Shown in pieces: positions 46,075 through 64,000 of a stretch of 64,000 nt of DNA (positions are counted from its first letter, which is position 1; every line of letters starts with the position of its first letter). Under the pieces are notes generated by a model that did no database searches, was not told where the DNA came from, and was given only the letters and a program-made list of their open reading frames with translations. The DNA comes from Anaeromyxobacteraceae bacterium (GTDB taxonomy: Bacteria; Myxococcota; Myxococcia; Myxococcales; Anaeromyxobacteraceae): the NCBI GenBank assembly GCA_047602405.1, contig JASGHJ010000001.1:2330423-2394422 (forward strand), given 5' to 3'. A program made the position numbers and the translations under genes.

Positions 46075-47286
46075 CTACCCGTGCTCGCGGAACTTCGAGA
46101 GCGCCGCCTTCACGAAGCGCGAGCGCACCTGCTCGGTCGCGAGCAGCCGCTCCGCGGGCGGCAGCGCGCCGAGGCCGCGCACGAGGCCGTGCAGCACCCG
46201 CGCGCCGAGCGAGCCGCTCGCGTCGAAGAGGAGGTCGGCGAGGCGGTTTCGCTCGAGCGCCTGGCGCACGACCTTCTCGAGCTGGTTCTGCGGCACCGGC
46301 CGCTGCGCGCCGCCGCGTACCATCCGGAGCGCGCCCTTGTGGCAGGCGGTCGCGCAGACGCCGCAGCCGATGCAGCGCTCGAGGTCGAAGCGCGGGGCGA
46401 GGCCGGACTTCTGCTGGCCGGTCCGGCGCTCCGGGACCATCGCGACCGCGCCCACCGGGCAGGCGCGTGCGCAGCGCGAGCAGCCGGCGCACGCGTCGCC
46501 CTCGCGCCGGGGCGCGAACCCGCTGCCGTTCACGCCGCGCAGGCCGAAGTCGTTCACCGCCCGCAGCTGCTCGCAGCAGCACCCGCAGCAGTTGCAGACG
46601 AAGGTCGGCCGGCTCCTCACGTTGTCGGCGATCTGCACGAGCCCGCCTTCGCGCGAGCGCGCGAGGACCTCCAGCGCCTCGGCGCGCCCGATGGGGCGGC
46701 CGAAGCCGCGGCGCACCACGAACTCGGCGCCGCCGCCGAGCGACAGGCAGACCTCCATGGGCGCGCCGCAGGCCTCGCCCACGTGCTCGGCCTTGTGCCG
46801 GCAGTAGCAGAGCGAGACGGCCCAGGCCTTCGCGTCGCCCACCACCGCGCTCGCCCGCTCCCAGTCGAGCACCTCGGGCGCGTCGTCGGCGAGCGGCGGC
46901 TCGTGCACGAGCGCGCGCCCGATGACGGTGTCCCGGCCGAGCGCCTCGCGCGCGAAGGCGGGGTCACCGTGGGTGTAGGCGTGCAGGGCCTCCGCCATGC
47001 GCTTCTTCGGGATGGTGTCGCGCTTGCCGTCGCCGAAGGGCGCGTCCTGCGCCCGCATGAGCGAGTACTCGAAGAACCCGACCACCGGCGGCGACAGGAA
47101 GTAGCTCACCCGCCCCGAGCGCGGCTCGACGAGGTCCATCACGAGCCCCTTGTCGCACATGGCGTCGAGCTTCGGCCCGAGCTCGGCCTCGGCGACGCCG
47201 AGGCGGCCGGCGAGCGTGCGGAGCGAGGTCGGCCGGAAGGGCATCCGGGCCGCGATCGCCGCCTCCTCGGGCGTCCAGAGGATCTT
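46075..47286 (-). pseudogene. 4Fe-4S dicluster protein, 5'-truncated at the junction
   Basis: CYCRH, CNCCGCCC, CxxCxxCxxxCP and CIGCGVCATAC; the plausible reading begins at KILWTPEEAAIAARMP and upstream sequence is the antisense of a STAS gene. Confidence 0.75.
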
Positions 47287-47635
47287 CGTCATCCCGCTCT
47301 CGCAGAAGGTCCTCCTCATGCCGCTCATCGGCACCATCGACGCCGGGCGCGCGGGGCTGATCATCGAGGCCTCCCTCCTCGGCATCGCCCGGCACCGCGC
47401 CTCGCACCTGATCCTCGACATCACCGGCGTGCCCGAGATCGACACCCTCGCCGCCGACGCGCTCGTCCGCACCTCGCGGGCCGTGAGGATCATCGGCGCG
47501 CGGGCGTGGATGACGGGGATAAGCCCGGCCATTGCCCGGACGCTCGCGCAGATCCAGGCGGATCTCGGCGAGCTCTCGACCTATGGCACCGTCCAGGAGG
47601 CCGTCGCCCGGCTGCTCCGCGGGAAGAGCCTCTGA
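47287..47635 (+). pseudogene. RsbR-type STAS domain, 5'-truncated
   Basis: VIPLSQKVLLMPLIGTID..RA..LILDITGVPEIDT..GARAWMTGISPAIARTL; no start codon or N-terminal sensor domain. Confidence 0.8.
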
Positions 47636-47689
47636 TCCCGCCCCGGCCTCGGCGGCGGGGCACAGCTCGGCTACGGTGATCGCCCGTCG

Positions 47690-48614
47690 ATGGAGATCGC
47701 CGACGTCCCGCCCGACCTCACGCGCCTGATCCGCGATCCTACGGCCGCGCCGGCCCCGTCGCCGTTCGATCACGCCCACGCCCTGCTCCGCGCCCACCTG
47801 CTCCGGCGGATCTCGCGCGCGCTCGAGAGCGCCGGCCTCTCCGCGATGCTCGTCAAGGGCGCCGCGCTCGCGCTCACCGTCTATCCGGACGCCGCCTCGC
47901 GCCCCATGGGCGACATCGATCTCCTGGCGCGGCGCGCGGATCGCGATCGGATCGTCGCCGCGCTGATCGACGCCGGCAGCGAGCTGCGCGCCCCAGCGGG
48001 GAGGCCGTGGAGCGCCGATCTCCTCGGCGAGGCGGTCGTCGCCATGCAGGCCGGCGCGACGTCGCTGCTCGTCGAGGTGCACACCACGCTCGACAAGATT
48101 CGTCGCGCGCCCGGTCGACATGCGCGCCCTCTTCGCCCGCGCCACGCCGGCCCCGGACCTGCCCGGCCTGACCATCCCGTCGCCGGAGGACCACGCGATC
48201 CTCATCGCGATCCACGCCGCCGGCCACGATTTCCACCACGCCGCGGCCCTGCTCGACCTCGCGCTCCTGCTGCGCAAAGGCCTGGATCTCCCCGCGCTCG
48301 CGGCGAGGGCGCGCGCGTGGCGAGCGCGGACGGCGCTGTTCGTCCTGTTCTCCCTGCTGCGCGATCTCGGCGCGCCCGAGGTCTCGGACGCGCATGTGGC
48401 GCTGTTCGATCCCGGCCCGCTGCGGCGCGCGGTCCTCCGCCGCCGCGCCGCGATGGCCGCCTCGAGCAACGATCTCGGACTGCCGTGGATGATCCGGCAA
48501 ACACCGCTCCGCGACGATCTCGGCACCTGGGTGCTGGGGCTCTGTCGCTATGCGGCGGTGCGCGGCGTGGAGCGGGTGATCTTCGGCAGCGCTCGAATAC
48601 GGCCCACGGCGTGA
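47690..48614 (+). CDS. Uncharacterised nucleotidyltransferase (NTP_transf_5-like); frameshift near 48100
   Basis: LVKGAALA..YPD...RPMGDIDLL, VEVH, PSPEDHAILIAIH..H, LLDLALL. Confidence 0.85.
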
Positions 48615-48619
48615 AGTCC

Positions 48620-48639
48620 GAACATCGGAGTCGATGTTC
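48620..48639. terminator. Hairpin immediately after the nucleotidyltransferase stop
   Basis: gaacatcg-gagt-cgatgttc; no clear U-tract. Confidence 0.35.
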
Positions 48640-48794
48640 ACGCAATTCCAGACGACGTTCGTGCACTACCATCGACGCAGCATCGCGTCGACGCGCTCAC
48701 CGAGCGTGCCTTACGCACTCAGGGCTCTGGGCGGACCAATACAGGTTCCCTTACAGGGTTTTCCCGGTTAACCTCCGTCCACCTGGAGGGAGCC

Positions 48795-51700
48795 ATGAGC
48801 CTGCACGCGCTTATCACCGCCCTTGCCCGTGGACTAACGCGGATGTTGGCCCCACTGCTCCTGGTGCTCGGATGCGTGCTCGAGCGGCAGCGCGTGTTCC
48901 GACGCCTCGACACCTCCCTCGCTCGGGGATGGTCCACCTCCGAAGACGCCCACTCCACCGCCGACTCAGCATCCCCCGCCGACGTGCCCGGCGTGGGATG
49001 ACTCCGTTTTTCCGTATGACCTCCCCACCACACCGACCGCCGCCGCCGGATCCATCGAAGGATCCTTCTCCGTTTCTCCTGCCGGCGATGCGACCTATCT
49101 CCTCTCGCTCGATGTCCCGCCGGGCAGGAACGGGATGCAGCCCTCGATCGGGATCGCTTACGACAGCGCGGGCGGCGATGCCGTGCTCGGCATGGGCTTC
49201 TCCATCACAGGCCTGTCCGCGATCACCCGCTGTCCACGCAATCTGCTCCAGGACGGGCGCGTCGGCGGGGTGACCTACGGACAGGCGGACGCGCTTTGTC
49301 TCGACGGCCAGCACCTCGTCATGACGAAGGGCCTCGTCCCGGATCCGCAGCACCCGTTTGCCGCGCAGAGCTGCGCCGCGCCCGATTGCTACGAGTACCG
49401 GACACAGCCGGATTCATTCGTACGCGTGCTCGCCCGCTACGAAAAGGGTCTGCCTGCGGACGACGGTCCGCAGTACTTCGACGTCTTCACCAAATCCGGC
49501 CTGCACCTCATCTACGGCGACGCCCCCGGGCAAGGCGGCAACGCCAACGTGCTCGCGTTGAACAGCGCCAACGCGGCCTGGTGGATCGCGCAGTCGAGCG
49601 ATCGCGACGGCAACACCATTGATTACACCTACTGGAACGATCTCGCATCGATCCCCTGGTCCTCCTGGCCTTATCTCCGGTCCTACACGACCGAGATCGC
49701 GCCCAAGCAGATCACCTACACCGGCCATCCCACGGTCCCGGCGACGCGGGCGATCTCGTTCGTCTACGATACCAAGGATCCGGAGGATATCCGCACGCGC
49801 TACGACCACGGCGCGCCGCGCACGAGCGCACGCCGCCTCGCGTCGATCTCGATGAGCGAGGGGCAAACCATCCTGCGCACGTACGATTTCACCTATGCGC
49901 TCGGGCAAACCACCCGCCGGACGCTCCTCCAGGAGGTCGAGGAGTGCTCCTGGACGCCGCAACGGGTGTGCAAGCCGCCCACGATTTTCACCTGGAGCGA
50001 GGCCGAGCTCGGGTTCAGCGCAGCCCCGGTCACGGCGTTGCCTGCTCCCGAGTCCGGGAATGCCAGCGTCATGCCGATGGACATCACCGGCGACGGCTTA
50101 CCAGATCTCGTGGTACCCGACATGCCCAAGGTCGGCGACACGAGCGCGGATCCTTCCACGACGCTGTGGCGCGTCGCGGTCAACAAAGGACCGCTCCACC
50201 CCGATCCCGATCACAGCCCCTACTTCTCCTCGCCGTTCACGGTCGCGGCCAACGCGCCCATCCCGCCGCCGGCCCAGCCGGGCGCGGCTGTCCTTCCCGA
50301 GCTCGGGACGCCCATCGATTACAATCACGATGGGCTGACGGACCTCCTCTTGCACGACATCCACGGTCAGCACCCGAACTGGATGGTGCTCCTCACGGTG
50401 CCGCCTTCGCCGAACAAACCGAATCCCACGTTCAAGCCGCTGGACACCGGCATCCCGCGGGTGTTCGGCCTCGGCGTGGATACGCCGCCGAGGCTCGCCG
50501 GGGCGACGGCCTCCGCTCACCTCGCGGATTTGGATGGAAACGGCGTGAGCGATCTCATTCAGTGTGAAGAGATTGCCATCGGCACGTTCGCATGGACAGT
50601 ACACCTCTGGGAGCCAGGAGGCTTCAGCCCCACCGCTCGCCCGCTGCCGCCGCTCTCGGTCATCTATCCCTGTGACACCGAGCTAACTCCCCTGGACGTC
50701 GACGCGGACGGCGTTATCGATCTCGTCCTGCGGGAGACCGACCAGGATCCGATGGGCGGCGCCATTCTGCGCGACAACTACATCACGTTCTCGCTCGTCG
50801 TCGCGAGCGCAGTGAGCCCGAGCTTCGATCTCTGGTCCTCGCTGGACCTGCACCTCCAGGTGCCGCCGACCGGAGGGGCGATCTTCTGGATGGATGTCAA
50901 CGGCGATAGCCTCCCCGACGCGGTCGAGACCGGGTTCGCCAACCATCTTCCGTTGACGTTCCTCAACACCGGTGATCCGGAGCAGATGTTCGCGCCGGGC
51001 TACGTGAGCATGGCGGCGGACCCGACGATCGATGCGCCGGACGCGCTGGCCTCGCTCGGGGTGCCCATCGACGACAATGGTGATGGGCAAGAGGACTTGC
51101 TCTTGCCCGTGCGGATGAACGGCCCCAACAACCCTCCTTCCTGGGTCGTGCTGGAGACCTCGAAGCAGGATCCGAGCGACCCGGCGTCCCCGTGGGTGTT
51201 CGTGCCGGTCGTGACGTCGATCCCCTTCGATGCCCAGGCGACGCTGGACGCAACCGGCAACGCGAAGATCTCGCTCTGGGACCCGCACGGGCCGCGCGTG
51301 CTCGACGTCGACGGGGACGGGGCGCACGACGTCCTCTTGCCGATCAATGGATTCTTCCACGTCTTCCGCAACAAGGCGTCCGATCAGGATCTGCTCGTCG
51401 CGGTCACGGACGGGCACAACGAGCACGACCCGGGTGAGCCAGGCTTTGCGCCCACCGTCGCGATTACCTATGCACACCTGATCGATCTCGCGCGGACCGA
51501 CGGCGTCTCCCCGGGATCACCGGCGCTCGACGAGTATCGCTATGTGTCGCGCGACGATCCGGCCAATGGCTGCGATTACCCGCGGGCGTGCGTCGCCGGG
51601 CCCCAGCGCGTCGTCGCGACGTATTCGCTGAACGCCGGCGCCTCGCCCAAGGGCCTTCCGCGGTGGCGCGCCTATGCCATCCAGTACCGCGACAGCCGCT

Positions 51701-54700
51701 ATCACCGGATCGCGCGGCGGTCGCTCGGCTTTGGCCGGCGGATCGTGCGCGACCTCCAGACCGGCGCCGGGGAGGAGGAGGTCTACGATAACGTCACGAC
51801 CGGGCTCGACCCCGGCTTCCCCGTGCCCTTCGCCGGCCAGGTGACCGAGGAACGGCGCTTCAATCCAGGCCTTCCGACGCAACCGAATCCGCAGCAGATC
51901 GAGATCTCGTCGACCACGGTTTCGTTGCAAGAGGTCATCACCCAGGCCGGCAGTAACCATTTCGTGGTGCCCGCCGTCCGCGAGGTGCGGAGCCTGGAGG
52001 GCATGTTGCCGCCGAACGCGTCGGTCCTCGGCTATGTGCGGGACAACGTCGGCCCGAACCCACCTTCGGCCATCGTGCTCAGCGACACAAAACGCTCGAT
52101 CACCAAGCTCGACGGCGACGGCAACGCGCTCGTCGAGAGCTCGAGCACGGCCAGCGTCGGGTTGACCAGCACCATTCAGCGCCAGATCGCGACGGACCCG
52201 TTCACCGGCCTCGCAAGCGAAATCACCGACGTGCACGAATGCAGCGCCGTGCCGGGGCTCCAGCAGTGCCGGACGCTGCACCGCACCCTGGATCCGGTGA
52301 GCGGTCATGTCATCACCGAGACCCAGGCGAGCGATGATCCGAGTGAGATCCAGGAGACCCAGGTCACCACCACGTTTGGCTACGATCTCTTCGGAGACCT
52401 GACGACCGTCAGCGCCGTCGACGCAGACGGCGACGTGCGCTCGACCTGTATCTCGTACTTCCCGAACGGGTTCCCCTTCGCGCACGTCAATGCGGCTGGG
52501 CATGTGGTCTACACCAAGTACCACCCAGGCTATGGGGTGTTGCTTGCCTCGGTGGACGCGAACGGCCTGGTCACGCAATGGGCGCACGACGGGCTCGGGC
52601 GGGTCACCGAGGAGCGGCGGCCGGACCAGACGAGCACCACGACTGCGCTCTCCCGCGTCAAGGATACGCAGCAAGGCGGCGTGGTATCGGCAAGAGGTCG
52701 AGACGAAGACGACCGGCGGAGAGGACGATGTCGTCTGGCAAGACAGCCTGGGGCGCACCGTCAGGACCTTTCGGCAAGGTGTGCAAACCGGCCCGCTCGT
52801 GCCACCGCGGATCGTGCAGCGGATACGCTATGACCTCTATAGCGGCAAGGTGGCGGCGCGCTCGGTGCCGGCCGACGAGCTGACCTTCAACCAACAGGGC
52901 GCGAGCGAGGAGACCTTCGAATACGACGCTGGCGGAAGGATGGTGAAGCACACCGCGCCGTGGGGCGCGGTGACGACGGTGGAGCACAGCGGGCTCACGA
53001 CGATGGTCACCGATCCGCGGCAGCACAAGACCGTGACCACGCTCGATGCGCTCGGGCGCACGGTCGCGATCGAGAATGCCAAGGGTGAGGTGACGACGTA
53101 CGGCTATGGGCCCTTCAGCGGGCTCTGGTCGGTGACCGCGCCCGATGCGACCACAACCAAGGTGATCCGCGACGCCTTTGGCCGGGTCAAGCACCGCGAC
53201 GATCCCGACCGCGGGCCGATGACGCTGCACCACGACGGCTTCGGGCAGCTCCGAGCGTCGACCGACGCGCTGAACCGAAAGGTCTCGATGGCATATGATC
53301 CGCTGGGACGGCCGCTCACGCGTGTTGACAGCGACGGGAGCACCCGGTGGGAATGGGACACCGCGCCCATGGGGAACAGCAAGGCGGCGCTCGGGAGGAT
53401 CGCCAAGGTCACGAGCCCCGGCGGCGCGATCAAGCAGTTCACGTATGATGATCTCGCCCGGCCGGCAGCGGTCAAGCTCACGCTCGACGGCGAGAGCTTC
53501 TCTGCGGCGACAGGCTACGACAGCTTTGGTCGCCTCTCGACGATCACCTACCCGAGCTCGCCCAACGTCGCGCCGCTGGTCGTCAGCTATGGCTACGACG
53601 ATCACGGTCATATGCTCATGGCAAAGGACGTGTCGACAGGCCTCGCCTACTGGACGCTGACGGGCACCGACGGCGCGGGGAGGATCACCGGAGAGCGGTT
53701 CGGCAACAAGGTCACGACGACGCGCGCGTATTTCGACGAGAAGAACCGCGTCAAGGCCATTCACACGGAGAACGACCTCGGCGCGACGCTCCAGGATCTG
53801 GCGTATGGGTATGACGACAACCTGAACCTCTCGACCCGCGCGGACAGCCTGGCGGGCCCGAACGGAAGCGAGACGTTCTTGTATGATGCGCTCGATCGGG
53901 TCTCGTGCGCCACGCTCACGGGAATGCCCGGCTGTCAGCAGGCTTGGAGCTACGAGCAGAACGGCAGCGGCAACCTCCATACCGCGTCGGGCGTCGGCGT
54001 GTATACGTATGACCCGCAGCACCCGCACGCGGTCCACACGGCCGGGCCGGACGTGTTCAGCTATGACGCCGTCGGGAATCAGATCGGACGGTCCGGTGCC
54101 ATCGTCGCGTACACCGCGTTCGACAAGCCCAAGAAGATCGCCGCCGTCGCGCTCGAGTACGACGGCGACCAGCAGCGGATCCGCAAGACGACCAGCGAGG
54201 CGGTGACCGTCTCCCTGGACGACCTCTACGAACGGGTCACGCACACGAGCACCGGCGTCGTCGAGCACCGGTACACCGTTCACGGAAGCGAGCGCGCGGT
54301 CGCGATCGTCACCCGCGAGGAGGCGGGGCCGAGCGCGACGCTCTACGCGCATGTCGACCACCTGGGCTCGGTCGATGCCTTATCGGACGAGCAAGGCAAG
54401 CTGGTCGAAAAGCGCAGCTATGACGCGTTCGGCGCGCGCAGAAATCCAGATTGGGGCAAGCCGCCTCCGCCGTCGTTCTCGTCGTTGACGCCCCACGGCT
54501 TCACCTGGCACGAGAGCGATGACGAGCTGGGGCTCGTCAACATGCGCGGCCGGATGTATGACCCAAAGGTCGGGCGGTTCTTGACAGCCGACCCGATCGT
54601 GGGCGATCCAGGCGCGGGCGAGCAATGGAATCCGTACGGCTATGTCGGCAACAATCCGCTCACGTTCATCGATCCCAGCGGGTTCGACGCCGAACCGATG

Positions 54701-55688
54701 CCGACCGGGCCGCCGCCGGCGGGCTGCGAGGCGTCCCCGCAACTATGCGCATTCAACGGCAAGTGGGTCAGCCCCATCGTCGTCACCGTCCATGGAACGA
54801 AGCCGCCCGAGCCGCCGCCCAAGCCGAAGGAGGAGGCGATCGAGGCCGGCGTGGCGCTCGTGCCCACCGACGTCAAGACCACGGGGACCGCGGTCGGCAC
54901 CGTGCCGGCGGCCGATACGACTGCGCCCAAGAGTCCCGGGCGTCGCGTCGGGCGATTCGCGTTCGGCATGGGCAAGGCCTATGTCGGGCAAGTGCTGGAG
55001 ACGGTCAAGTCGATCACGCTCAACGTCGCGACGTTCGGGGGGTACAGCATCGTCAAGACGTGGTGGAGCATTGGCGAGGGGATCTTCGAGGGGATCGAGC
55101 GGCATGATTTCGGAGAGGCGGGCTGGCAGGTCGGGCTCAGCGGGGCGATGCATGGGATCAACGCGGTCAATCCCGTGTGGGGGGCCATCGTCACCGGGAT
55201 TCATGGGGTCGAGGCCGTCCAGCAGGGGGATGACGGAGAAGCTCGGCGCGGCGGTTGAGCCGGTGCTCGTGGCGATTATCGGTACGGTCGTTGCCGGGAG
55301 GGTTGCGGGGGCGGAGGCGGGGACCGCAGGGGCAGCGGAGGCTGAAGCGAGTGGCCTCGCTTCCCGCGCCAATGCCATTCACGGTGCGCTCAATCCCATC
55401 ACACAACGTTTTACGACGACGGCTGTTGCGCAAGTACGGACGGCGTCGGGAGCTGTCGAACGCTGGGTCGCATCGAGCGAGCGTGTCCTGCGCCCAGCTC
55501 AGCTCGATGCGCTCTTGCCGGGTGAACGAGCAATCGAGGGGATCGGACATGCGGAGGCGACGATCACCAACGAGGCAGCAATTCGAGGAGCAGCAGTTGA
55601 ATCAATCGCCGCGAGTCGACCGATTTGCCCCGCCTGCGCCACCCAGATTCAATCAGTCGGAGCAATTCCGCGGAGCCCGCTAAGATGA
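48795..55688 (+). CDS. SpvB/FG-GAP/YD-repeat Rhs polymorphic toxin with C-terminal deaminase-like domain; frameshifts near 48871, 52680, 55235
   Basis: GSFSVSPAGDATY..DVPPGRNGMQPSIGIAYDS..LGMGFSITGLSAITRC (SpvB-like), D.xGDG.xD repeats, YD repeats, HVDHLGS, RMYDPKVGRFLTADP, YVGNNPLTFIDPSG, tip GHAE...SRPICPAC. Confidence 0.85.
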
Positions 55689-55700
55689 GGTATACGGAAC

Positions 55701-56283
55701 ATGATCAGCTCGTGGAGTAACAAACTGGTGGAACAGTTAAGAGAGCTGTCTACTCAGAAGCGGGTAGCGTTCGCCGCTTCATGCTGCGAGCGGATGCTGC
55801 CCAATTACGTCGCCTTTTCGAGACAGAGCAGATGGGGAGATCCCGCGGCTCTTCGCGCAGGCCTTGACATCGCATGGCGTTACGTCGAGGAAGCTTACAT
55901 TGAACCATCGACCTTGGAAGCAGCAATTGACTCCTGCGAACGAAACACACCTGATACGGAACAATTTTTCGCACCCCCTGACATCGGCCGCTCTAGATGC
56001 CAGCGCAGGGATTTTAGAAACGTTGCATTGTATCACTGACGGGAGCGCGCGCCGAGCCGCCGATGTTGGAGCCATGGCGCATGACACCGCAGAGATGTAC
56101 GTTCGGGACGCAGAGGGTATCAGCGTCGAATTCGCCTCACGTCACCCGCTTGTGAAAGATGAATTGGAACGGCAAACAAGAACGCTTGCGGCGCTCGGTC
56201 GTACAGATTACCACCTGTCGGCTCTGATTAGAGACATCAAACAGGAGAACGCTTGCGCAAAAGCCATATCCGATCCGAGGTGA
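55701..56283 (+). CDS. DUF416-like putative immunity protein; frameshift near 55975
   Basis: 12 bp after the toxin stop; VAFAASCCERMLPNY, PDTEQF, ALDA, HPLVKDELERQ; AT-richer than flanks. Confidence 0.7.
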
Positions 56284-56289
56284 AGCACG

Positions 56290-56550
56290 ACGAGATGGTG
56301 GAAAGTGCAAGGAACAGATACGGTCTTGGGTGACGTCCCGTTCGATATCTTAGGAAGATCCATTGCAGAGGTTGTGCAGGAGTACCAGGTTGTGTTCCAG
56401 CGTCGCCCAACAAAGACTGAGTGGGAGGTACTGCTTACAGAGGCGCTTCTCGTTGGCGTGACATCCGAAAGGCAGCAAATGCGCACACCAGATGATAGTG
56501 TCGTGCGCGGGGTCACTCTCGAGCTTGAAGAAACCATAAGTTACAAATAG
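56290..56550 (+). CDS. Small hypothetical protein, possible orphan immunity gene (start uncertain or degenerate)
   Basis: RWWKVQGTDTVLGDVPFDIL...FQRRPTKTEWEVLL; AT-rich, follows the immunity gene. Confidence 0.45.
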   Translation, partial: TRWWKVQGTDTVLGDVPFDILGRSIAEVVQEYQVVFQRRPTKTEWEVLLTEALLVGVTSERQQMRTPDDSVVRGVTLELEETISYK

Positions 56551-56561
56551 AAGTCACCATG

Positions 56562-56646
56562 CCCGGAAGGCATGTAGTGGGGGCAATTCGCATTCGGGAT
56601 GGCAAGGCCTATGTCGGGGAAGTGCTAGAAAAGGTCAAGTCGAGCA
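56562..56646 (+). repeat. Degenerate direct repeat of the Rhs pre-toxin segment 54935-55016
   Basis: ggcaaggcctatgtcggggaagtgctagaaaaggtcaagtcgagca vs ggcaaggcctatgtcgggcaagtgctggagacggtcaagtcgatca. Confidence 0.8.
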
Positions 56647-56939
56647 GAGTTCGATATTTTACGTTGGACTCCAGCACAAGCACGCAGCAGCCGCCTTATC
56701 CCGGTTCTGCAAGACCGTGCACCAGGGCATCTATGGCGATCAGTCTTCCGGAGCACATCCCTCCCTGAGCGGGCGATGGGGAGGGGCGCGCAGCGCGCAG
56801 CGCCGAGCACCGACGGGGCCCGCGGGGATGGGCATCCAACGGAGATCATCGAAGCGCTTGACATCCGACCCGATCGTCGACAATCCAGGCGCGAGCGAGC
56901 AACGGCCCCCTCCGCCTCCCCGTATCCACACCGCCACCC

Positions 56940-57812
56940 ATGAAGCCCTATCGTGCGCCGCGCTGGGTCCGCGCCCTCCTCGCCTGGGATCGCGTCGCGA
57001 TCCGCGCCAACAACATCCGAGAAGGCATCCTCGACGAGCTGCTCCTCGCCTGGATCCCGCCCGAGGATCGCGCGGCGCTCACCGCCCTCGTCTACGCGAA
57101 GCAGAGCGCTTATCTGCCCGGCGGCGCGCACTTCCAGGGCGGCCTCTTCGGCTGGGAGCGCCGCGCCCTCGACGCGCCTCCCTTCCCCTCGAGCGGCCGC
57201 GTCCTCGTCGGCGCGGCCGGCGCCGGGCGTGAGGTCCGCGCCCTCGTCGATCGCGGCTTCTCCGTCGTCGCCTTCGACCCGTGCGCGCCCTTCGCCGACG
57301 CCGCGCGCACCCTCGCCACGGACGATCGCGCCACCTTCGTCCAGGCCTCCTACGAGGACCTCGTGCGCGCCGTCGAAGGCCGCGGCGGGCCGCTCGATTT
57401 CCTCCGCGCCAATCCTCCGTTCGACATGGTAATCCTCGGCTGGGGCAGCTTCTCGCACGTCATGCCCGCCGCCTCCCGGCTCGCATTGCTCCGCGCCCTC
57501 CGCGCCCTCGCGCCGCGCGCCCCCGTGCTCATCAGCTTCGCGCTCGAGCCGGAGCCGGGCACCGCGCCGCCGGGCAAGGGGCGCGTCCGCGGCACGCTCC
57601 AGCGCCTCTTCGCCGCGCTCGACGCGCCCGGCGTCTCCGAGGTCGGCGATCATTTCCTCTCGAACGGAGGGTTCTTCTCCTTCCTCAAGCAGGACGCCTT
57701 GATCAAGCTCGCCTGGGACGCAGGCTACGAGATCGTTCGCTTCGAGGAGCAGCCCTATGCCCACGCGGTCCTCGCCCCGCTCGGGAGCGCAGGCGCCGAG
57801 GCGACCCCGTGA
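56940..57812 (+). CDS. Class I SAM-dependent methyltransferase-like protein
   Basis: RVLVGAAGAGRE motif I, VVAFDP, FDMVILGWGSFSH. Confidence 0.75.
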   Translation: MKPYRAPRWVRALLAWDRVAIRANNIREGILDELLLAWIPPEDRAALTALVYAKQSAYLPGGAHFQGGLFGWERRALDAPPFPSSGRVLVGAAGAGREVRALVDRGFSVVAFDPCAPFADAARTLATDDRATFVQASYEDLVRAVEGRGGPLDFLRANPPFDMVILGWGSFSHVMPAASRLALLRALRALAPRAPVLISFALEPEPGTAPPGKGRVRGTLQRLFAALDAPGVSEVGDHFLSNGGFFSFLKQDALIKLAWDAGYEIVRFEEQPYAHAVLAPLGSAGAEATP

Positions 57813-57922
57813 ACGCGCGAGGCCCCTCGGGCAACGGAACGCGGGACCCCCTCGGTTGTGCGCGGGGGTAGCCGCGTGGTAACGTCGGCGGACCGGTTTC
57901 AGGCTTGTTTTCGAGGAAGACA

Positions 57923-58114
57923 ATGGCGGACACGACGCAGCGAGCCAGGGAAGACGAAGAGGGCACGGCCCCGTCGCCCTCCCTCGCCCCCCTCCCGGAG
58001 GACCACCGGAGGCCCTACGAGAGCCCGCGGATCATGAAGAAGCGATCCCTCAGCTCCGCGACGCTCTTCACCGTCATGACGCAGAGCTCGATCGGCCTGA
58101 CGATGATGGGTTGA
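57923..58114 (+). CDS. Putative RiPP precursor peptide (63 aa) with lasso-type leader
   Basis: RBS gaggaag; MADTTQRAREDEEGTAPSPSLAPLPEDHRRPYESPRIMKKRSLSSATL-FTVMTQSSIGLTMMG; directly upstream of rSAM/B2/RRE. Confidence 0.8.
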   Translation: MADTTQRAREDEEGTAPSPSLAPLPEDHRRPYESPRIMKKRSLSSATLFTVMTQSSIGLTMMG

Positions 58115-58153
58115 TCGAGTCCGCGGCCCCCCTCGCCGCGCCGGAGGAGCTCC

Positions 58154-59205
58154 ATGGCCGTCGCCGTCATCGGGTTGCATGTGACCGACCGCTGTCAGCT
58201 CGATTGCCAGCACTGCCTCCGCGATCCCGAAGAGAAGCCGAAAGATCTCCCGCTCGCCGTGATCGCAGAAGGTCCTCGCCGAGGCGAGCCGCGTCTACCG
58301 CGCCGCGCAGGTCGCCCTCACCGGCGGCGAGCCGCTCCCTCCACCCCGACCTCGAGGGCATCCTCGACGCCATCGTCGAGAGCGATCTCCGCTGGCACCT
58401 CGTCACCAACGGCAAGCGCTTCTCCCGCCTGCTCGATCTGCTCCGCGCGGCGCCCGCGCGGCGGGATCACCTCACCGCCGTCAACTTCAGCCTCGACGGC
58501 GCGGACGAGGCCGTGCACGACGAAATCCGCGGCAAGGGCAGCTATCGCGAGGTGATGCTCGGCGCGACGCTCTGCACGGCCCACGGGATCCCGTTCGTCC
58601 TGCAGATGGTGATCGACGCGAAGAACGCCCACCAGATCGAGGCGATGGGCCTGCTCGCCAGCCACCTCGGCGCGAGCGCCGTCTCGTTCTCGATGCTCCA
58701 GCCGACGGGCACGCACCTCGACCGCAATCTCTACCTCTCGGCGCGCGCGTGGCGGAACATCAAGGACCGGATCGAGCGCCTCATGGCCACGATCAAGCTC
58801 CGCGTGCAGATGCCGGAGGGCTTCTATCAGGATCAGCCCTTCCACGTGTGCGAGCCGTTCGCGAGCAAGCAACTGCACGTCGACGTCGAGGGCCGGCTCA
58901 ACCTCTGCTGCCAGCACTCCGGCATCCCGAGCGACGGGCCGAACCAGGACGTCGCGGGGGACCTCAAGGAGATGAGCCTGGTCGAGGCGCACGCGCGCCT
59001 GCTCGGGATCATCCACAAGGCGCAGCTCGACCGGCTCGATCGCGTCGCGCGGGGCAACCTCACCGAGTGGGATCACTTCGGCTGCAACGATTGCATGAAG
59101 CGTTTCGGCAAGCCCCACTGGGTCGACGGCGGCGTGCAGGGCCCCGAGGCCCACAGGGAGCGCTGGCGGGGCGCGTGGGCGAAGAGCCTGCCCGTCGTGA
59201 AGTGA
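58154..59205 (+). CDS. Radical SAM enzyme with C-terminal SPASM/twitch-like Cys; frameshifts near 58268 and 58338
   Basis: RBS ggagg; VTDRCQLDCQHC, ALTGGEP (middle frame), LVTNG, FSLDG..HDEIRGKGSY, C-terminal CEPF..VDVEGRLNLCC..CNDC. Confidence 0.88.
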
Positions 59206-59210
59206 AGGCG

Positions 59211-59645
59211 ATGCTCGCGCTGATCGAAGCCGCGATCCCGCAGGGAATCCGACTCCGCACGGAGGCCATCGCCCTCCGCCTCCGCCTCGGCGCGTGGGTG
59301 CGGAAGCGATCGTTGCCGGACGTCCTCCGCGCGCTGAGTAAGCATGATCGCGCGGCCGATCCGGTGCCGCTCCCGCTCGTCGAGGAGGCGATCGGCGCGA
59401 GCGAGGCGATCGTCGCCCGCCTCCGCGTCCTGCCGGACACGTGCCTCTATCAATCCCTCGCGCGCTACGCGGTGCTCCGCCGCGCCGGGCACCCAGCGCG
59501 GTTCGTGATGGGCATCAAGCCGCCCGCGGACGGCGAGATCACCGGCCACGCGTGGGTCGAGCTCGACAACTCCCCCGCGTTCGAGGAGATCGAGCCGGAT
59601 CTGATCGTCACGTTCTCCTATCCCGAAGGCCGCGTATCGCCATGA
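59211..59645 (+). CDS. Lasso B2-type transglutaminase-like leader peptidase
   Basis: DTCLYQSLA, RFVMGI, GHAWVELD (catalytic Cys/His). Confidence 0.88.
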   Translation: MLALIEAAIPQGIRLRTEAIALRLRLGAWVRKRSLPDVLRALSKHDRAADPVPLPLVEEAIGASEAIVARLRVLPDTCLYQSLARYAVLRRAGHPARFVMGIKPPADGEITGHAWVELDNSPAFEEIEPDLIVTFSYPEGRVSP

Positions 59646-59929
59646 CCGACAAGGCCGCGCCCACGCCCAACCCGCAAGCCCTCTTCACCGAGCTCGACGA
59701 CGGCACCGGCGTGCTCCTCCACCTCGACACCAAGTTCTATTACACGCTGAACCCCACCGCGGTCTTCGTGTGGAAGGCGCTCGGCAGCGCGGCGGCCCGG
59801 TCCGTCGCCTCCATCGCCCAGGATCTCATCCGCGAGTTCCGCGTCGAGCGCTCCGAAGCCGAGCGCGACGTCACCCGCATCCTCGACGAGATGATCGCCG
59901 ACGGCCTCGTGATCGAGCGCCCGGCGTAG
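59642..59929 (+). CDS. PqqD-family RiPP recognition element (B1-like)
   Basis: ELDDGTGVLLHLDTKFYYTLNPTAVFVW..L..EFRVE...AERDV..ILDEMIADGLV. Confidence 0.92.
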   Translation: MTDKAAPTPNPQALFTELDDGTGVLLHLDTKFYYTLNPTAVFVWKALGSAAARSVASIAQDLIREFRVERSEAERDVTRILDEMIADGLVIERPA

Positions 59930-59937
59930 CGCTTCCG

Positions 59938-60934
59938 ATGCCCGCCATCTCGATCCGCGGCGCCGCGATCTCGTGGTCGAGCGAGGGCCTCGCCGAGGAT
60001 CCGATGGCCGGCGTGCTCGAGATGCTCGAGCCCACAAAAGCCTCTGAGATCGCCGAGCGAATCCATCTCGATCTCCGCCCGGCGACGGCAGAGACCGCGG
60101 CCGATCCCGGCGAGGAAGGCTGGATCCCGTCGTTCTTCCACGGCGCCGTGCAGGCGTACCGCGGCCCCTCGGGGTTCCTGCTTTCGGGATCGATCCTCGC
60201 GCGTGCTCATCCCAACCGGGATCGCGCCTGCTTCGGCGGAGGTCGTCGCGCCTGGCGAGGAGATCCACGCGGGATCCACGCGCGTCCTCTTCCAGATCGC
60301 GCTCACGCTCCTGCTCCGCCGCGCGCGGCTCTTCCACCTCCACGCCGCCGCGGTCGTACGCCCTGACGGCGCGGCGATCCTCATCGCCGGATCGTCGGGC
60401 GCCGGGAAGACGACGACCGCGCTCGCGCTCCTCGAGGCCGGCGTCGAGTACCTCGGCGACGACGCGATCTTCCTCCATCCCAGCGCCGATCCCGGGCAAA
60501 TCGCGCACGCCGTCGCCTTCCCGCGCGCGTTCCACCTCGGCCCGGCGACGCTCTCCGCGTTCCCCCGCCTCCTCCCCCTCGCCGGCCCCGCGCCCGCGCG
60601 CACCGACAAGCGACCGGTCGATCCCCGCGTCGCGTTCCCCGACCGCCATCGCCCGGAGATCCCGCTCTCGCGGGGGCGGACCATCGCGGTCTTCCCCTCG
60701 ATCAGCGGGGGCAAAACCACGGAGATCAGTGCGATTTCCAAGGCCGAGGCGTTCGGGCACCTCCTCGCCGAGAGCGCGGCGCTCATCGTCGAGGGGATGC
60801 CCTTCCGCGACGAGAACCTCGCGATCCTCCGCGCCCTGGTGGATGCTGCGTCCCCGGTCGAGATCCGCCTCGGGGAGGACGCGCTCACCGCGCCAAGAGC
60901 CGCGGTGGCGCCCCGGCTCTTGAACTTTCTATAA
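59938..60934 (+). CDS. HPr kinase-related protein; frameshift near 60185
   Basis: LHAAAV, AILIAGSSGAGKTT (Walker A), YLGDD. Confidence 0.82.
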
Positions 60935-60935
60935 T
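60930..60935 (+). promoter_or_regulatory. Possible -10 box for wzc
   Basis: Perfect TATAAT about 52 bp upstream of the wzc start in very GC-rich DNA; no clear -35. Confidence 0.3.
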
Positions 60936-60987
60936 CGCGGCGCAACGTACCAGCCCGTCCGCGCAGTTTTCCCCGTGAGATGCCGCA

Positions 60988-63286
60988 GTGAGCGCTGAAA
61001 CCCCGCAAAATCCAGTCCGGCAGTTCGGCCAGCCCGCGGTCCGCCCCGAGGCCGCCGGCGCCGGCGGCGCCGTCATCTGGCACACCCTGCGCAAGCACTG
61101 GACGACCGCGGCCATGACCGCGATCGTCGTCACCCTCGCGGTCACGTTCTACACCCTCGGCCAGACGAAGATTTACCAGGCCGCGGCGACGATCCAGTTC
61201 GATCCCAACCCGCCCCGCCCCCTCGGCCAGAAGGTCGAGACCGTCGTGGAGATGGGCGCCGGCAGCTACTGGGACAACCACGAGTACTACGAGACCCAGT
61301 ACAAGATCATCACCTCGACCCGCGTCGCCGCCGCCGTCGTCAGCCAGCTCGGGTTGAACCACGACGCGGCCTTCCTCCGCAACGCGCCGCCCGGCGTCAC
61401 CTTCCCGCCCGCCAACGTCCCGGAGGAGGCGGCGGCCCAGGCGCTGCGCGGGCGCATCAAGGTCGAGCCGGTGAAGGACAGCCGCCTCGCCGTGGTCAAG
61501 CTGGAGGACGCCGATCCCGATCGCGCCCAGCGCCTGCTCGCCGCCGTCGTCGACGTCTACATCGCGATGAACCTCGAGGACGTGCACGCCTCGACCTCGC
61601 AGGCGGCGGACTGGCTCCACGGCCAGCTCGACAAGCTCAAGGAGGACCTCGAGACGAGCGAGATGAGCCTCCACGATTACAAGGAGAAGAAGAACATCCT
61701 CTCGGTGTCGCTCGACGATCAGTCGAACATGCTCCGCGAGGAGATGAAGCAGCTCAACGAGGCGCTCACCTCCGTGCGCACCAAGCGCGAGGAGATCTCG
61801 GCGCGGCGCACGGAGCTCGCCAAGGTGCGCGCGGACAACCCGACGAACCTCCCCGCGAGCGAGCTGCTCCAGAGCGCGCTGCTCCAGGGCCTGCGCCGCG
61901 CCTACGAGGACGCGGTGCGCGATCGCGACGGCCTCGTGAAGGGCGGCAAGGGCAAGAACCACCCCGAGGTGATGAGCGCCGACGCGAAGATCGACGCCAC
62001 GCGCGAAGCGCTCCTCGCCGAGGTGCGCAACATCCAGGGCGCGCTCGACGGCGATCTCGCGGTGATCAAGCGCCAGGAGGCCGGGCTCGCCGGCCTGTAC
62101 GAGGGCGCGAAGAAGGAGGCGTTCGACCTCAATATCCTCGAGATCGAATACAACCGCCTCCGCCGCACGAAGGAGAACGACGAGAAGCTCTACTCGCTCG
62201 TCCTCGACCGCACGAAGGAGAGCGATCTGACCCGGATGCTGCGGGTCAACAACATCCGCGTCGTGGACCCGCCGCTCCGCCCGGGCGGCCCGGTGCGCCC
62301 GCAGGTGCCGGTGAACATCGCCACGGGCATGTTCGTGGGCATCCTCCTCGGGATCGTCGCCGCCGTCGGCCGCGCGCTGCTCGATCGCACCGTGAAGACG
62401 CCGGACGACATCGAGCGCGAGGTCGGCCTCTCGTTCCTCGGCATCCTCCCGGAGATCGGCGACGACAAGCGCGGGCTACAGCCACAGTATCACCGCGGCC
62501 AGCGCAAGCCGAACGTGAACCTCGTCGAGGGCGGGCCGGAGCTCATCGTCCACAATTATCCATTGAGCGGAATCGCCGAAGCATCCCGGACCATCCGCAC
62601 CAATTTGCTCTTCATGGCGCCGGATCACCCGTTCCGCACGCTCCTCGTCACGAGCGCCGGCCCCTCCGAGGGCAAGACCACGGTCGCGTGCTGCATTGCC
62701 ATTGCAATGGCGCAGGCCGATCAGCGCGTCGTCCTCGTCGATTGCGATCTGCGCAGGCCCCGGCTCCACCGGATCTTCCGCGCCAAGGCCGATCTCGGCC
62801 TCACCACCGCGCTCCTCGACGAGGACGTGGCGAGCTCGCTCACCCCGGCGATCCAGGAGACGCCGGTGCCGAACCTGAGCATCCTCGCCGCCGGCCCGAT
62901 CCCGCCGAACCCGGCCGAGCTGTTCCACAGCGAGCGCTTCCACCGCGTCCTCGAGGAGCTGCAGAGCCGGTTCGATCGCGTGATCATCGACAGCCCGCCC
63001 GTCGTCGCCGTCACCGACGCCGCCGTGCTCTCCACGCTGGTGGACGGCACCGTGCTCGTGCATCCGCGCCTTCAAGACGCAGAAGGATCTCGCCCGCCAC
63101 GCGCTCCGCGCGCTCGCCGACGTCGGCGCCAACACGGCGGGGACCGTGCTCAACTCGGTCAACCTCAACAAGGGTGAGTACAAGTACTCTCAGTACTATT
63201 ACTACCGCAAAGAGGGTTATTACGCCGAGGACGCGCCCGCCCCCTCGAAGTCGTCCCCGCCTCCCCCGCAGGCCGAGGCGAGCTGA
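60988..63286 (+). CDS. wzc: Wzc-type polysaccharide co-polymerase / tyrosine autokinase; frameshift near 63060
   Basis: Two TM segments around a coiled coil, AEASRTIRTNL, VTSAGPSEGKTT, VDCDLRRP, IIDSPP, Tyr-rich tail GEYKYSQYYYYRKEGYY. Confidence 0.92.
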
Positions 63287-63375
63287 AGCCTAGGGAGGGC
63301 GACCAAGGAATACACTGGTATTTTGAGGGAGCCCAACCGACGCGTCGGGGCGCGCAGCAGAAAATCAACGGGCTG

Positions 63376-64000
63376 CTAAAAAGGCCTCTTCGCGGTGAGG
63401 AAGAGGAAGCTCCCGCGCCGCGCCTGCGCCTCGCGCAGATATCTGATTCCGACACCATCTTGATCGCGAAGCGGCGGAGCCGCCGGGGGAGCGGGATCGC
63501 GTCCGACTCCTGGCCGCAGATCTCGGAGGAGACGTCCTTGAAGAAGGCGCGGAAGAGATCCTCGAACTGCTCGGGCACGTAGAAGCGCGCGGAGAAGCCG
63601 TCGGTCGTCTCGTAGAGCGTCTCGTCGAAGCTCTTCTGGAGGAAGCGCCCTCCGAGCAGGTATTCGCGGACGAAGGTCACCGCCACGCGGGCGCCGCCGC
63701 GGTGATAGACCATCACCCGACACTCGCCCTCCGCCGGAGCACGCGGGCGATCTCCCCGCACGATCTTCGCCGTCCGCGAGGAGTGGTGGATAACCCCCCA
63801 CGACCACACGATATCGAAGCTCTTGTCGGGGAACGGGAGGGCCTCCGCGTCGCCCTGGACGACGTCGGCCGAGAGGCCTTTGAGCGCGAGGCGCCGCTTC
63901 GTCGCTTCGATCGAGGTGGGGGGGAGAGATCGATCGCGGTGACCCTGGCGCCGGCGCGGATCATCGTCTCGCAATGCAGGCCCATGCCGCAGCCAATCTC
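63376..64000 (-). CDS. Class I SAM-dependent methyltransferase (partial, several frameshifts)
   Basis: EIGCGMG, AIDLS, QGDAEALPFPDKSFDIVWSWGVIHH. Confidence 0.8.

What the first reader, a model, noticed from the sequence alone, without database searches (positions are those of the whole stretch)
57923..58114. Precursor has exact lasso leader spacing but a core that cannot form a lasso ring
Seen: counting back from a cut after ...SSATL, the leader has Tyr at -17, Pro at -14, Ile at -12 and Thr at -2. This is the canonical YxxPxL...T(-2) spacing, with Arg at -8 where Gly is common. The predicted 15-aa core FTVMTQSSIGLTMMG (58067-58111) has no Asp/Glu (needed for the macrolactam), no Cys (needed for sacti/ranthipeptides) and no Trp/Tyr/His; it has 3 Met, 3 Thr, 2 Ser and one Phe. 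Inference: the rSAM chemistry is something else (epimerisation, Met/Thr/Ser- or Phe-based cross-link, or C-terminal Gly chemistry), and Ser/Thr are the likely kinase targets.
Basis: partly seen in the sequence, partly recalled or inferred. Interest (0 to 1): 0.82.

Follow-up and report, generated by a model that had tools for sequence, protein, structure and literature searches.

The report
Ringless lasso-type peptide with radical enzyme
This small gene encodes the precursor of a myxobacterial peptide family that keeps the leader-handling parts of lasso peptides but lacks the ring-closing enzyme, and it is likely made into a linear peptide phosphorylated at its second residue and possibly given mirror-image (D) residues by a radical-SAM enzyme, a combination I did not find described.

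Summary
The 63-aa ORF has Tyr-17, Pro-14, Ile-12 and Thr-2, and a core FTVMTQSSIGLTMMG without Asp/Glu, Cys or Trp/Tyr/His. It is not an indel artefact: contigs from three runs (two studies) cross the core without a gap.

Among 91 distinct related precursors, 68 lack Asp/Glu. The only nearly fixed core position is Ser/Thr2 (81 of 91). It sits 18 residues after the leader Tyr, the spacing of the phosphorylated Ser in linear polyphosphorylated peptides (LPP, PMC13381572). The cassette is RRE, B2 peptidase, HprK-like kinase, nucleotidyltransferase, ABC exporter and radical SAM, often with a methyltransferase; no cyclase was found. So it works like LPP but uses a lasso B2 peptidase and adds a radical SAM.

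That enzyme keeps a spare cysteine at the position of the H-donor Cys223 of the epimerase EpeE, so epimerisation is my lead guess (about 0.35-0.4). The motif is not diagnostic, and some cassettes lack the enzyme. Met-, Phe- and C-terminal-Gly chemistry are not supported.

Window 47286-64000 is most likely a Polyangiaceae fragment misjoined to this assembly, so the cluster probably does not belong to the host genome.

The parts
57923..58114 (+). Precursor peptide gene, 63 aa (48-aa leader, predicted 15-aa core)
58016..58033 (+). YESPRI, YxxPx[LIV] motif predicted to bind the RRE
   Evidence: motif definition in PMC13381572
58061..58066 (+). Thr-2 Leu-1, predicted B2 cleavage signal
   Evidence: Thr at -2 in 88 of 91 and 60 of 63 unselected; cut inferred
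58067..58111 (+). Predicted core FTVMTQSSIGLTMMG
58070..58072 (+). Thr2, predicted phospho-acceptor, 18 residues after the leader Tyr as for LPP Ser3
   Evidence: Ser/Thr in 81 of 91; LPP motif YxxPxVLxHQxIxFETxxS
58154..59205 (+). Radical SAM enzyme with one predicted auxiliary cluster (twitch type); frameshifted by extra bases near 58265 and 58337 that relatives lack
58906..58911 (+). Cys-Cys (251-252 in P0003 numbering); the second Cys aligns with EpeE Cys223
59202..59645 (+). Lasso B2-type cysteine peptidase (TCL and GHAW motifs intact)
   Evidence: NF033537 52.3 bits, cut-off 33; PF13471
59642..59929 (+). Discrete RRE (PqqD/B1)
   Evidence: PF05402 E 4.9e-17; PDB hits TfuB1, TbiB1, 9x8z, 9x90
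59938..60934 (+). HprK-like kinase (HAAAV, Walker A, GDD motifs); frameshifted near 60185
   Evidence: family hits are below the curated cut-offs
56940..57812 (+). Class I SAM methyltransferase, predicted amine N-methyltransferase; fused to the nucleotidyltransferase in several relatives
   Evidence: weak hits to daptide MTase NF041820 and PDB 3g2m
47690..48614 (+). NTP_transf_5 nucleotidyltransferase (PF14907); frameshifted near 48099; separated from the rest by an Rhs block
60988..63286 (+). Wzc-type polysaccharide chain-length/tyrosine kinase gene, flanking exopolysaccharide locus
   Evidence: same adjacency in L021, L027, L028, L044
47285..47286 (.). Probable chimeric assembly junction: host chromosome to the left, Polyangiaceae-like fragment to the right

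Best explanation
This is the precursor of a cyclase-free myxobacterial peptide cassette that likely makes a linear peptide phosphorylated at core residue 2 and then tailored further, with the radical SAM enzyme predicted to act as a cysteine-quenched epimerase. Shown: the gene, its leader motif, the conserved Ser/Thr2, the gene set, no cyclase found, and the cysteine layout of the radical SAM. Inferred steps: the RRE binds YESPRI and presents the peptide. The HprK-like kinase (poly)phosphorylates Thr2. The nucleotidyltransferase adds a sugar or nucleotide to that phosphate. The radical SAM abstracts a hydrogen and Cys252 returns one from the other face, most likely at Val/Ile/Leu of the Gly-rich core. 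B2 cuts after Thr-Leu, the methyltransferase N-methylates the freed Phe1 amine, and an ABC transporter exports the product beside exopolysaccharide genes. My odds: linear LPP-like phosphopeptide at Ser/Thr2 about 0.7; radical SAM as peptide epimerase about 0.35-0.4.
For: Ser/Thr at core position 2 in 81 of 91 distinct precursors, against 19% at positions 3 and later. Same distance from the Tyr (+18) and from the conserved Thr (+3) as LPP Ser3, which LppK phosphorylates. Among 42 radical-SAM loci of 13 kb or more: B2 38, RRE 38, precursor 38, kinase 37, nucleotidyltransferase 35, ABC 28, methyltransferase 23. No AsnB-like hit in any fetched cassette locus, and no PF00733 hit near the cluster in the complete Minicystis genome. 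PsmK/PsmN precedent for kinase followed by hexose addition (PMC9266682 passages). C232, C251, C310 and C313 in 208 of 208 homologues and C252 in 206 of 208; C252 in 118 of 132 covering 50%-identity representatives. An EpeE-like profile aligns to PDB 8ai1 at E 1e-32 and shows ...GEIYPCC..., while the 8ai3 sequence reads PCA, placing Cys223 second in the pair. hhalign joins that profile to ours (probability 97.6) with all five cysteines in register. Cys223 is EpeE's proposed H donor, with Val/Ile as targets (PMC13012085 passages). 85 of 91 cores have V/I/L at position 3 or later.
Against: No activity was tested. The CC pair is not diagnostic: an unrelated SPASM protein in L194 has GEVMPCC and a BlsE (decarboxylase) homologue has a spare Cys as CxC; BtrN, a sugar dehydrogenase, has the same pair by my recall, which I could not confirm. 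14 of 132 representatives lack C252. The fold search ranks SuiB, SkfB, BlsE and PqqE (Z 25.0-22.3) above EpeE (Z 18.4), and TIGR04078 is not among the top 25 NCBIfam hits. The link to EpeE runs through an intermediate profile; the C-terminal domain alone found nothing in PDB. LppK did not accept Thr at its site (S3T), whereas this peptide has Thr (28 of 91 in the family). 10 of 91 precursors lack Ser/Thr2. LppN was inactive heterologously, so the nucleotidyltransferase step is open. Methyltransferase hits are far below cut-off.
Confidence: 0.45

Rival explanations
1. Same linear phosphopeptide, but the radical SAM works on the sugar or nucleotide that the nucleotidyltransferase hangs on phospho-Thr2 (epimerisation, oxidation or decarboxylation, as twitch enzymes do on sugars and nucleosides), not on the peptide backbone.
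For: The enzyme is highly conserved while cores vary widely except at position 2. BlsE is among the top fold matches (Z 22.8). The loci sit among polysaccharide genes. The myxobacterial clade keeps invariant basic residues (R23, H81, R334, R336) that could hold phosphate. Cores from cassettes with and without the radical SAM look alike.
Against: The top fold matches also include peptide maturases (SuiB, SkfB, PqqE). The gene most often sits directly after the precursor (63 of 108 loci). The basic residues are not kept in distant representatives. A few radical-SAM loci show no nucleotidyltransferase in view (7 of 42).
Confidence: 0.25
2. The radical SAM makes a cross-link or oxidation at Ser/Thr2 or a neighbouring residue (ether, C-C bond or formylglycine-type), replacing the macrolactam as the class-defining change.
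For: Fold neighbours SuiB, PqqE and anSME do such chemistry (functions recalled). Ser/Thr2 is the only nearly fixed core residue.
Against: There is no conserved second partner: 36 of 91 cores have no aromatic residue and 78 of 91 no Cys. A Ser at the same or the adjacent position persists in six cassettes lacking the radical SAM, which points to the kinase as its user. The spare Cys would be unexplained.
Confidence: 0.2
3. A lasso peptide after all: a cyclase encoded elsewhere closes a ring, or a sequencing error hides the acidic residue.
For: Lasso-type leader, RRE and B2 are present. The genomes encode PF00733 proteins elsewhere.
Against: The core is gap-free in three runs. 68 of 91 cores have no Asp/Glu, 13 have one at positions 7-9, and only 1 combines that with G/A/S/C at position 1. 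No cyclase was found in the loci.
Confidence: 0.02

Closest known systems
Linear polyphosphorylated peptides (LPP) of Bacillota, LppA/K/B/S/D/N (PMC13381572; read: abstract, introduction, first two results sections, discussion, term searches of the main text and 6 supplements)
   Same: YxxP leader, discrete RRE, HprK-like kinase, NTP transferase, ABC exporter, no cyclase, location in polysaccharide loci, conserved Thr at Tyr+15 and hydroxyl residue at Tyr+18.
   Different: Here the peptidase is lasso B2, not an SpI signal peptidase. Cores are 9-23 aa rather than 45. A radical SAM and often a methyltransferase are added. The hosts are mostly Myxococcota. The paper's main text has no 'radical', 'Myxo' or 'methyltransferase'.
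Paeninodin / pseudomycoidin phosphorylated lasso peptides (PadeK, PsmK, PsmN; review PMC9266682, passages only)
   Same: Split RRE plus B2 peptidase, Thr-2, HprK-like kinase, nucleotidyltransferase.
   Different: Those have a macrolactam cyclase, an Asp/Glu ring acceptor and a C-terminal Ser as kinase site. Here there is no cyclase or acceptor, the core ends in Gly, and the conserved hydroxyl residue is at position 2.
Epipeptide epimerase EpeE/YydG (PDB 8ai1; PMC13012085, PMC8326336, PMC5682303, passages only)
   Same: Radical SAM with a single auxiliary cluster and five C-terminal cysteines C...CC...CxxC; the second Cys of the pair is in register with H-donor Cys223.
   Different: Sequence identity is only about 14% in the structural alignment and TIGR04078 is not met. 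EpeE is reported to be leader-independent, with no B2, kinase or nucleotidyltransferase in its system (gene set recalled).
Daptides (search-listing abstract of PMC12670281 only; other details recalled)
   Same: Linear RiPP with lasso-like RRE/peptidase; the methyltransferase here hits the daptide MTase model weakly.
   Different: No C-terminal Thr here, and no recurring dehydrogenase or aminotransferase among the annotated clusters.

Membership tests
Lasso peptides | [YW]xxPx[LIV] leader with Thr at -2 | tested here: met
Lasso peptides | RRE (B1) and B2 cysteine peptidase | tested here: met
Lasso peptides | Asp/Glu at core position 7-9 | tested here: not met
   none in this core; 13 of 91 in the family
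Lasso peptides | Macrolactam cyclase (Asn synthetase-like) in the cluster | tested here: not met
   no tblastn hit with two AsnB-like queries in the cassette loci; PF00733 hits lie far from the cluster in complete G423. The window fragment ends at 64000, so the true host's flank beyond it is unseen.
LPP | Discrete RRE, HprK-like kinase and NTP transferase, without cyclase | tested here: met
LPP | MsbA-like ABC exporter | tested here: inconclusive
   28 of 42 related loci; not in the window fragment, which is cut at 47286
LPP | SpI (SipW-like) leader peptidase | tested here: not met
   B2 in 38 of 42 loci; no signal peptidase among the 19 cluster representatives annotated; no dedicated SpI profile was run
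LPP | Ser at Tyr+18 (core Ser3) as phospho-acceptor | tested here: inconclusive
LPP | Polyphosphorylation by the kinase | not testable with these tools
   needs expression and mass spectrometry
EpeE-type radical SAM epimerase | Auxiliary-cluster cysteines plus a spare Cys at the Cys223 position | tested here: met
   (through an intermediate profile)
EpeE-type radical SAM epimerase | Score above the TIGR04078 cut-off | tested here: not met
   not among the top 25 of 51 hits for P0003, all far below their cut-offs; no match in G000
EpeE-type radical SAM epimerase | L-to-D inversion at C-alpha | not testable with these tools
   needs D2O assay and Marfey analysis
Sacti-/ranthipeptides | Core Cys as sulfur donor | tested here: not met
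   no Cys here; 13 of 91 cores have two Cys
Daptides | C-terminal Thr with dehydrogenase and aminotransferase (recalled) | tested here: not met
   core ends in Gly; no such recurring genes among those annotated

The most novel reading that the evidence does not exclude
A new RiPP class in Myxococcota and beyond: a linear, N-methylated, D-amino-acid-containing peptide carrying a phospho-sugar or phospho-nucleotide at residue 2, made by lasso leader machinery with an RRE-dependent twitch radical SAM epimerase in place of the cyclase, and exported alongside exopolysaccharide as a possible surface or matrix component.
Probability: 0.25. Interest if true: 0.8.

Novelty: new variant of a known kind. 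Interest (0 to 1): 0.6.

Why it matters
It extends the cyclase-free, kinase/nucleotidyltransferase branch of lasso-like RiPPs (LPP, described in 2026 from Bacillota, final product unknown) to myxobacteria, with a different peptidase and an uncharacterised radical SAM family: 247 clusters at 50% identity reach E 1e-30 or better. It gives two residue-level predictions that can be tested directly, Thr2 for the kinase and Cys252 for the radical SAM. Cultured strains carry the cassette (Polyangium fumosum DSM 14668, P. jinanense, Minicystis rosea, Byssovorax cruenta), so native products can be sought. It bears on the open question of why these peptide cassettes sit in polysaccharide loci. It also warns that this assembly's contig end is chimeric.

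Tried and rejected
Complex prediction of radical SAM + RRE + precursor from L020 with a 4Fe-4S cluster gave no verdict (0.58, against 0.84 for the control with the radical SAM replaced); it is not used as evidence.

No RNA holder was listed among sequencing runs, so expression is unknown.

Direct PDB searches with the C-terminal domain, single and as a profile, found nothing. The Atlas search for the recurring 442-aa secreted-looking protein gave only low scores (0.77, NIDO).

The link between methyltransferase presence and Met-rich cores (22 of 26 against 3 of 21) falls in one clade of the tree, so I rejected it as evidence for Met methylation.

The leader frequencies were selected by my own pattern, so I replaced them; two false hits (L015, L032) were dropped.

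Met-, aromatic- and C-terminal-Gly chemistry were rejected on conservation.

The primary EpeE papers and a twitch-domain review were not held, and a search for BtrN cysteines found nothing relevant.

Literature searches listed no paper describing a B2 + radical SAM + kinase + nucleotidyltransferase cassette. I read listings and selected passages only; subscription journals and bioRxiv supplements are not covered. RRE-Finder mentions about 300 lasso-type RREs beside radical SAM genes as false positives, without study (PMC7470986 passages).

Full report
Observation. The ORF at 57923-58114 encodes the 63-aa peptide as described, with Y-17, P-14, I-12, R-8, T-2 and a 15-aa core from 58067. Short-read contigs of near-identical strains in runs X2, X3 and X4 (two studies) cross the core without a gap. 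The same runs lack the extra bases that break the radical SAM (58265, 58337), kinase (60185) and nucleotidyltransferase (48099) genes, so these frameshifts are probably assembly errors.

Surroundings. [quoted passage not shown] A PF14907 nucleotidyltransferase at 47690-48614 is separated from the methyltransferase by an Rhs block; in relatives the two are adjacent or fused.

Family. The radical SAM brought in 16 loci from 14 of 301 genomes, 49 genome loci and 68 metagenome loci, almost all Myxococcota where named. A precursor profile gave 91 distinct precursors from 108 loci. Thr-2 is present in 88 of 91, and in 60 of 63 in a check that did not select for it. Cores are 9-23 aa and rich in Gly, Ser, Thr, Met, Val and Pro. 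68 have no Asp/Glu, 13 have one at positions 7-9, 13 have two Cys, 4 have W/Y/H, 36 have no aromatic residue, 45 have Met and 37 end in Gly. The only nearly fixed core position is 2 (Ser 53, Thr 28; Ser/Thr is 19% at positions 3 and later). These sequences are related, so the counts are not independent, but Ser/Thr2 spans nearly the whole tree. Among 42 loci of 13 kb or more: B2 38, RRE 38, precursor 38, kinase 37, nucleotidyltransferase 35, ABC transporter 28, methyltransferase 23. Two AsnB-like queries hit no cassette locus. In complete Minicystis rosea the cluster is at 12.27 Mb and the nearest PF00733 hit at 13.51 Mb.

The radical SAM is optional. The host chromosome has its own cassette at C1 about 886-893 kb (L142): precursor (core FSGDGGPGGGIGGE), B2, RRE, kinase (38% identical to the window kinase), nucleotidyltransferase and ABC transporter, with no radical SAM. 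L182, L183, L184, L186 and L191 are similar, and their five genomes (96-99% complete) gave no match to the radical SAM profile at 1e-25 (that call had no positive control, while one search found the family in 14 of 301 genomes). Four of these six precursors have Ser at Tyr+18 and two have it one residue earlier. This points to the kinase, not the radical SAM, as the user of position 2.

Closest described system. Popov et al. 2026 (PMC13381572) describe LPPs in Bacillota: SpI peptidase, discrete RRE, HprK kinase, NTP transferase and MsbA-like exporter in capsule loci, without cyclase. Their motif YxxPxVLxHQxIxFETxxS puts Thr at Tyr+15 and the phosphorylated Ser at Tyr+18, the same register as T-2 and Thr2 here (my count from the published motif). 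The main text has no mention of radical SAM, myxobacteria or methyltransferase; in the supplements Myxococcota appear as SpI entries in the two rows shown (of four) and Radical_SAM as one column heading. In pseudomycoidin, PsmN adds hexose to the phospho-Ser (review passages). So this cassette works like LPP but fails LPP membership on the peptidase, and fails lasso membership on cyclase and ring acceptor.

The radical SAM. The model of homologue P0003 (mean pLDDT 88.6) matches SPASM/twitch enzymes: SuiB Z 25.0, SkfB 23.9, BlsE 22.8, PqqE 22.3, anSME 21.9, EpeE 18.4, so the fold does not give the reaction. No NCBIfam model reaches its cut-off. Beyond the SAM motif there are five conserved cysteines: C232, C251, C310 and C313 in 208 of 208 and C252 in 206 of 208; C252 holds in 118 of 132 covering representatives at 50% identity. 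One auxiliary cluster needs at most four ligands. An EpeE-like profile (A4, 10 sequences) aligns to PDB 8ai1 over all five cysteines, and the 8ai3 sequence has Ala at the second Cys of the pair, which with the 25-residue tag offset is Cys223. hhalign puts our five cysteines in register with that profile (probability 97.6). Cys223 is the proposed H donor for Val/Ile epimerisation (passages). Against this, CC also occurs in an unrelated SPASM protein (L194), and a BlsE homologue has a spare Cys. I therefore put peptide epimerisation at about 0.35-0.4, action on an appended sugar or nucleotide at about 0.25, and a cross-link or oxidation at about 0.2. The methyltransferase's best, weak matches are the daptide MTase model and PDB 3g2m, which I recall as the glycopeptide N-terminal N-methyltransferase MtfA; N-methylation of Phe1 is an inference.

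Whose DNA. The assembly is 74% GC and 6.16 Mb, and its same-genus relatives' radical SAMs are 46-56% identical, whereas the window enzyme is up to 84% identical to database proteins and groups with Polyangiaceae loci. The window is the end of contig C1. Bases 46638-47285 are 100% identical to the first 648 bases of C2. C2 continues with the natural start of the minus-strand Fe-S gene, while the window switches to the tail of a STAS gene. Contigs from X1 and X3 align only from 47289 rightwards, with 51 and 63 unmatched letters on the left. Composition turns Polyangiaceae-like from 48 kb (12 of 117 background bins are also positive). A misjoin is the best reading (about 0.9); a real recent insertion is not excluded without the source reads.

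Novelty. Cyclase-free YxxP peptides are known (LPP; PQQ; fosfazinomycin, passages). Five searches listed no description of this B2 + radical SAM + kinase + nucleotidyltransferase set. Earlier notes of this scan report the same architecture in at least 26 genomes; they are unchecked leads, not support. Verdict: a real precursor of an undescribed variant of LPP-like peptides, with testable residue-level predictions; interest 0.6.

Noticed in passing
window 47285/47286; G000 C2:1-648: Probable chimeric join: the last 16.7 kb of contig C1 is Polyangiaceae-like and error-rich, while C2 carries the natural continuation of the host gene.
   Followed up: yes
window 49135-56550: Rhs/YD-repeat gene in two ORFs (SpvB-like, FG-GAP and RHS domains) followed by a split DUF416 gene and small ORFs, inserted between the nucleotidyltransferase and methyltransferase that are adjacent or fused in relatives; runs X2 and X4 hold similar Rhs sequence.
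   Followed up: partly
L142:6330-15063 (G000 C1 about 886-895 kb): The host's own cassette without radical SAM: precursor, PD40 beta-propeller protein, B2, RRE, kinase, ABC, nucleotidyltransferase, a 480-aa lipoprotein-like gene and a WecA/MraY-like gene (the last named from sequence only).
   Followed up: partly
L051, L056, L062, L083, L096, L105, L110, L122: A subfamily of cores with two Cys (for example VSGEECVFDPPGTC); all 13 Cys-containing cores have two, suggesting a disulfide.
   Followed up: no
L020, L021, L027, L030, L031, L034, L038, L041, L044, L053: A 440-490-aa protein of no Pfam family recurs in 12 of 42 loci, usually just upstream of the precursor; PD40 beta-propeller proteins recur in 4 others. 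Possibly secreted partners.
   Followed up: partly
L192:404-3044 (minus strand): A different myxococcotal locus with an EpeE-like radical SAM (TIGR04078 E 4.6e-21, below cut-off), an HprK-like kinase and a GNAT fused to a signal-peptidase-looking N-terminus: possibly an LPP-type cassette with its own epimerase.
   Followed up: partly
L015/L016 (G097 C25) and L063: Two paralogous radical SAM genes in one cassette; in L063 one copy lacks the second cysteine of the pair.
   Followed up: no
G000 C1:1-3000 and C1:23314-26305: The start of contig C1 is an inverted near-copy (98%) of a stretch 23-26 kb inside, another possible assembly artefact.
   Followed up: no
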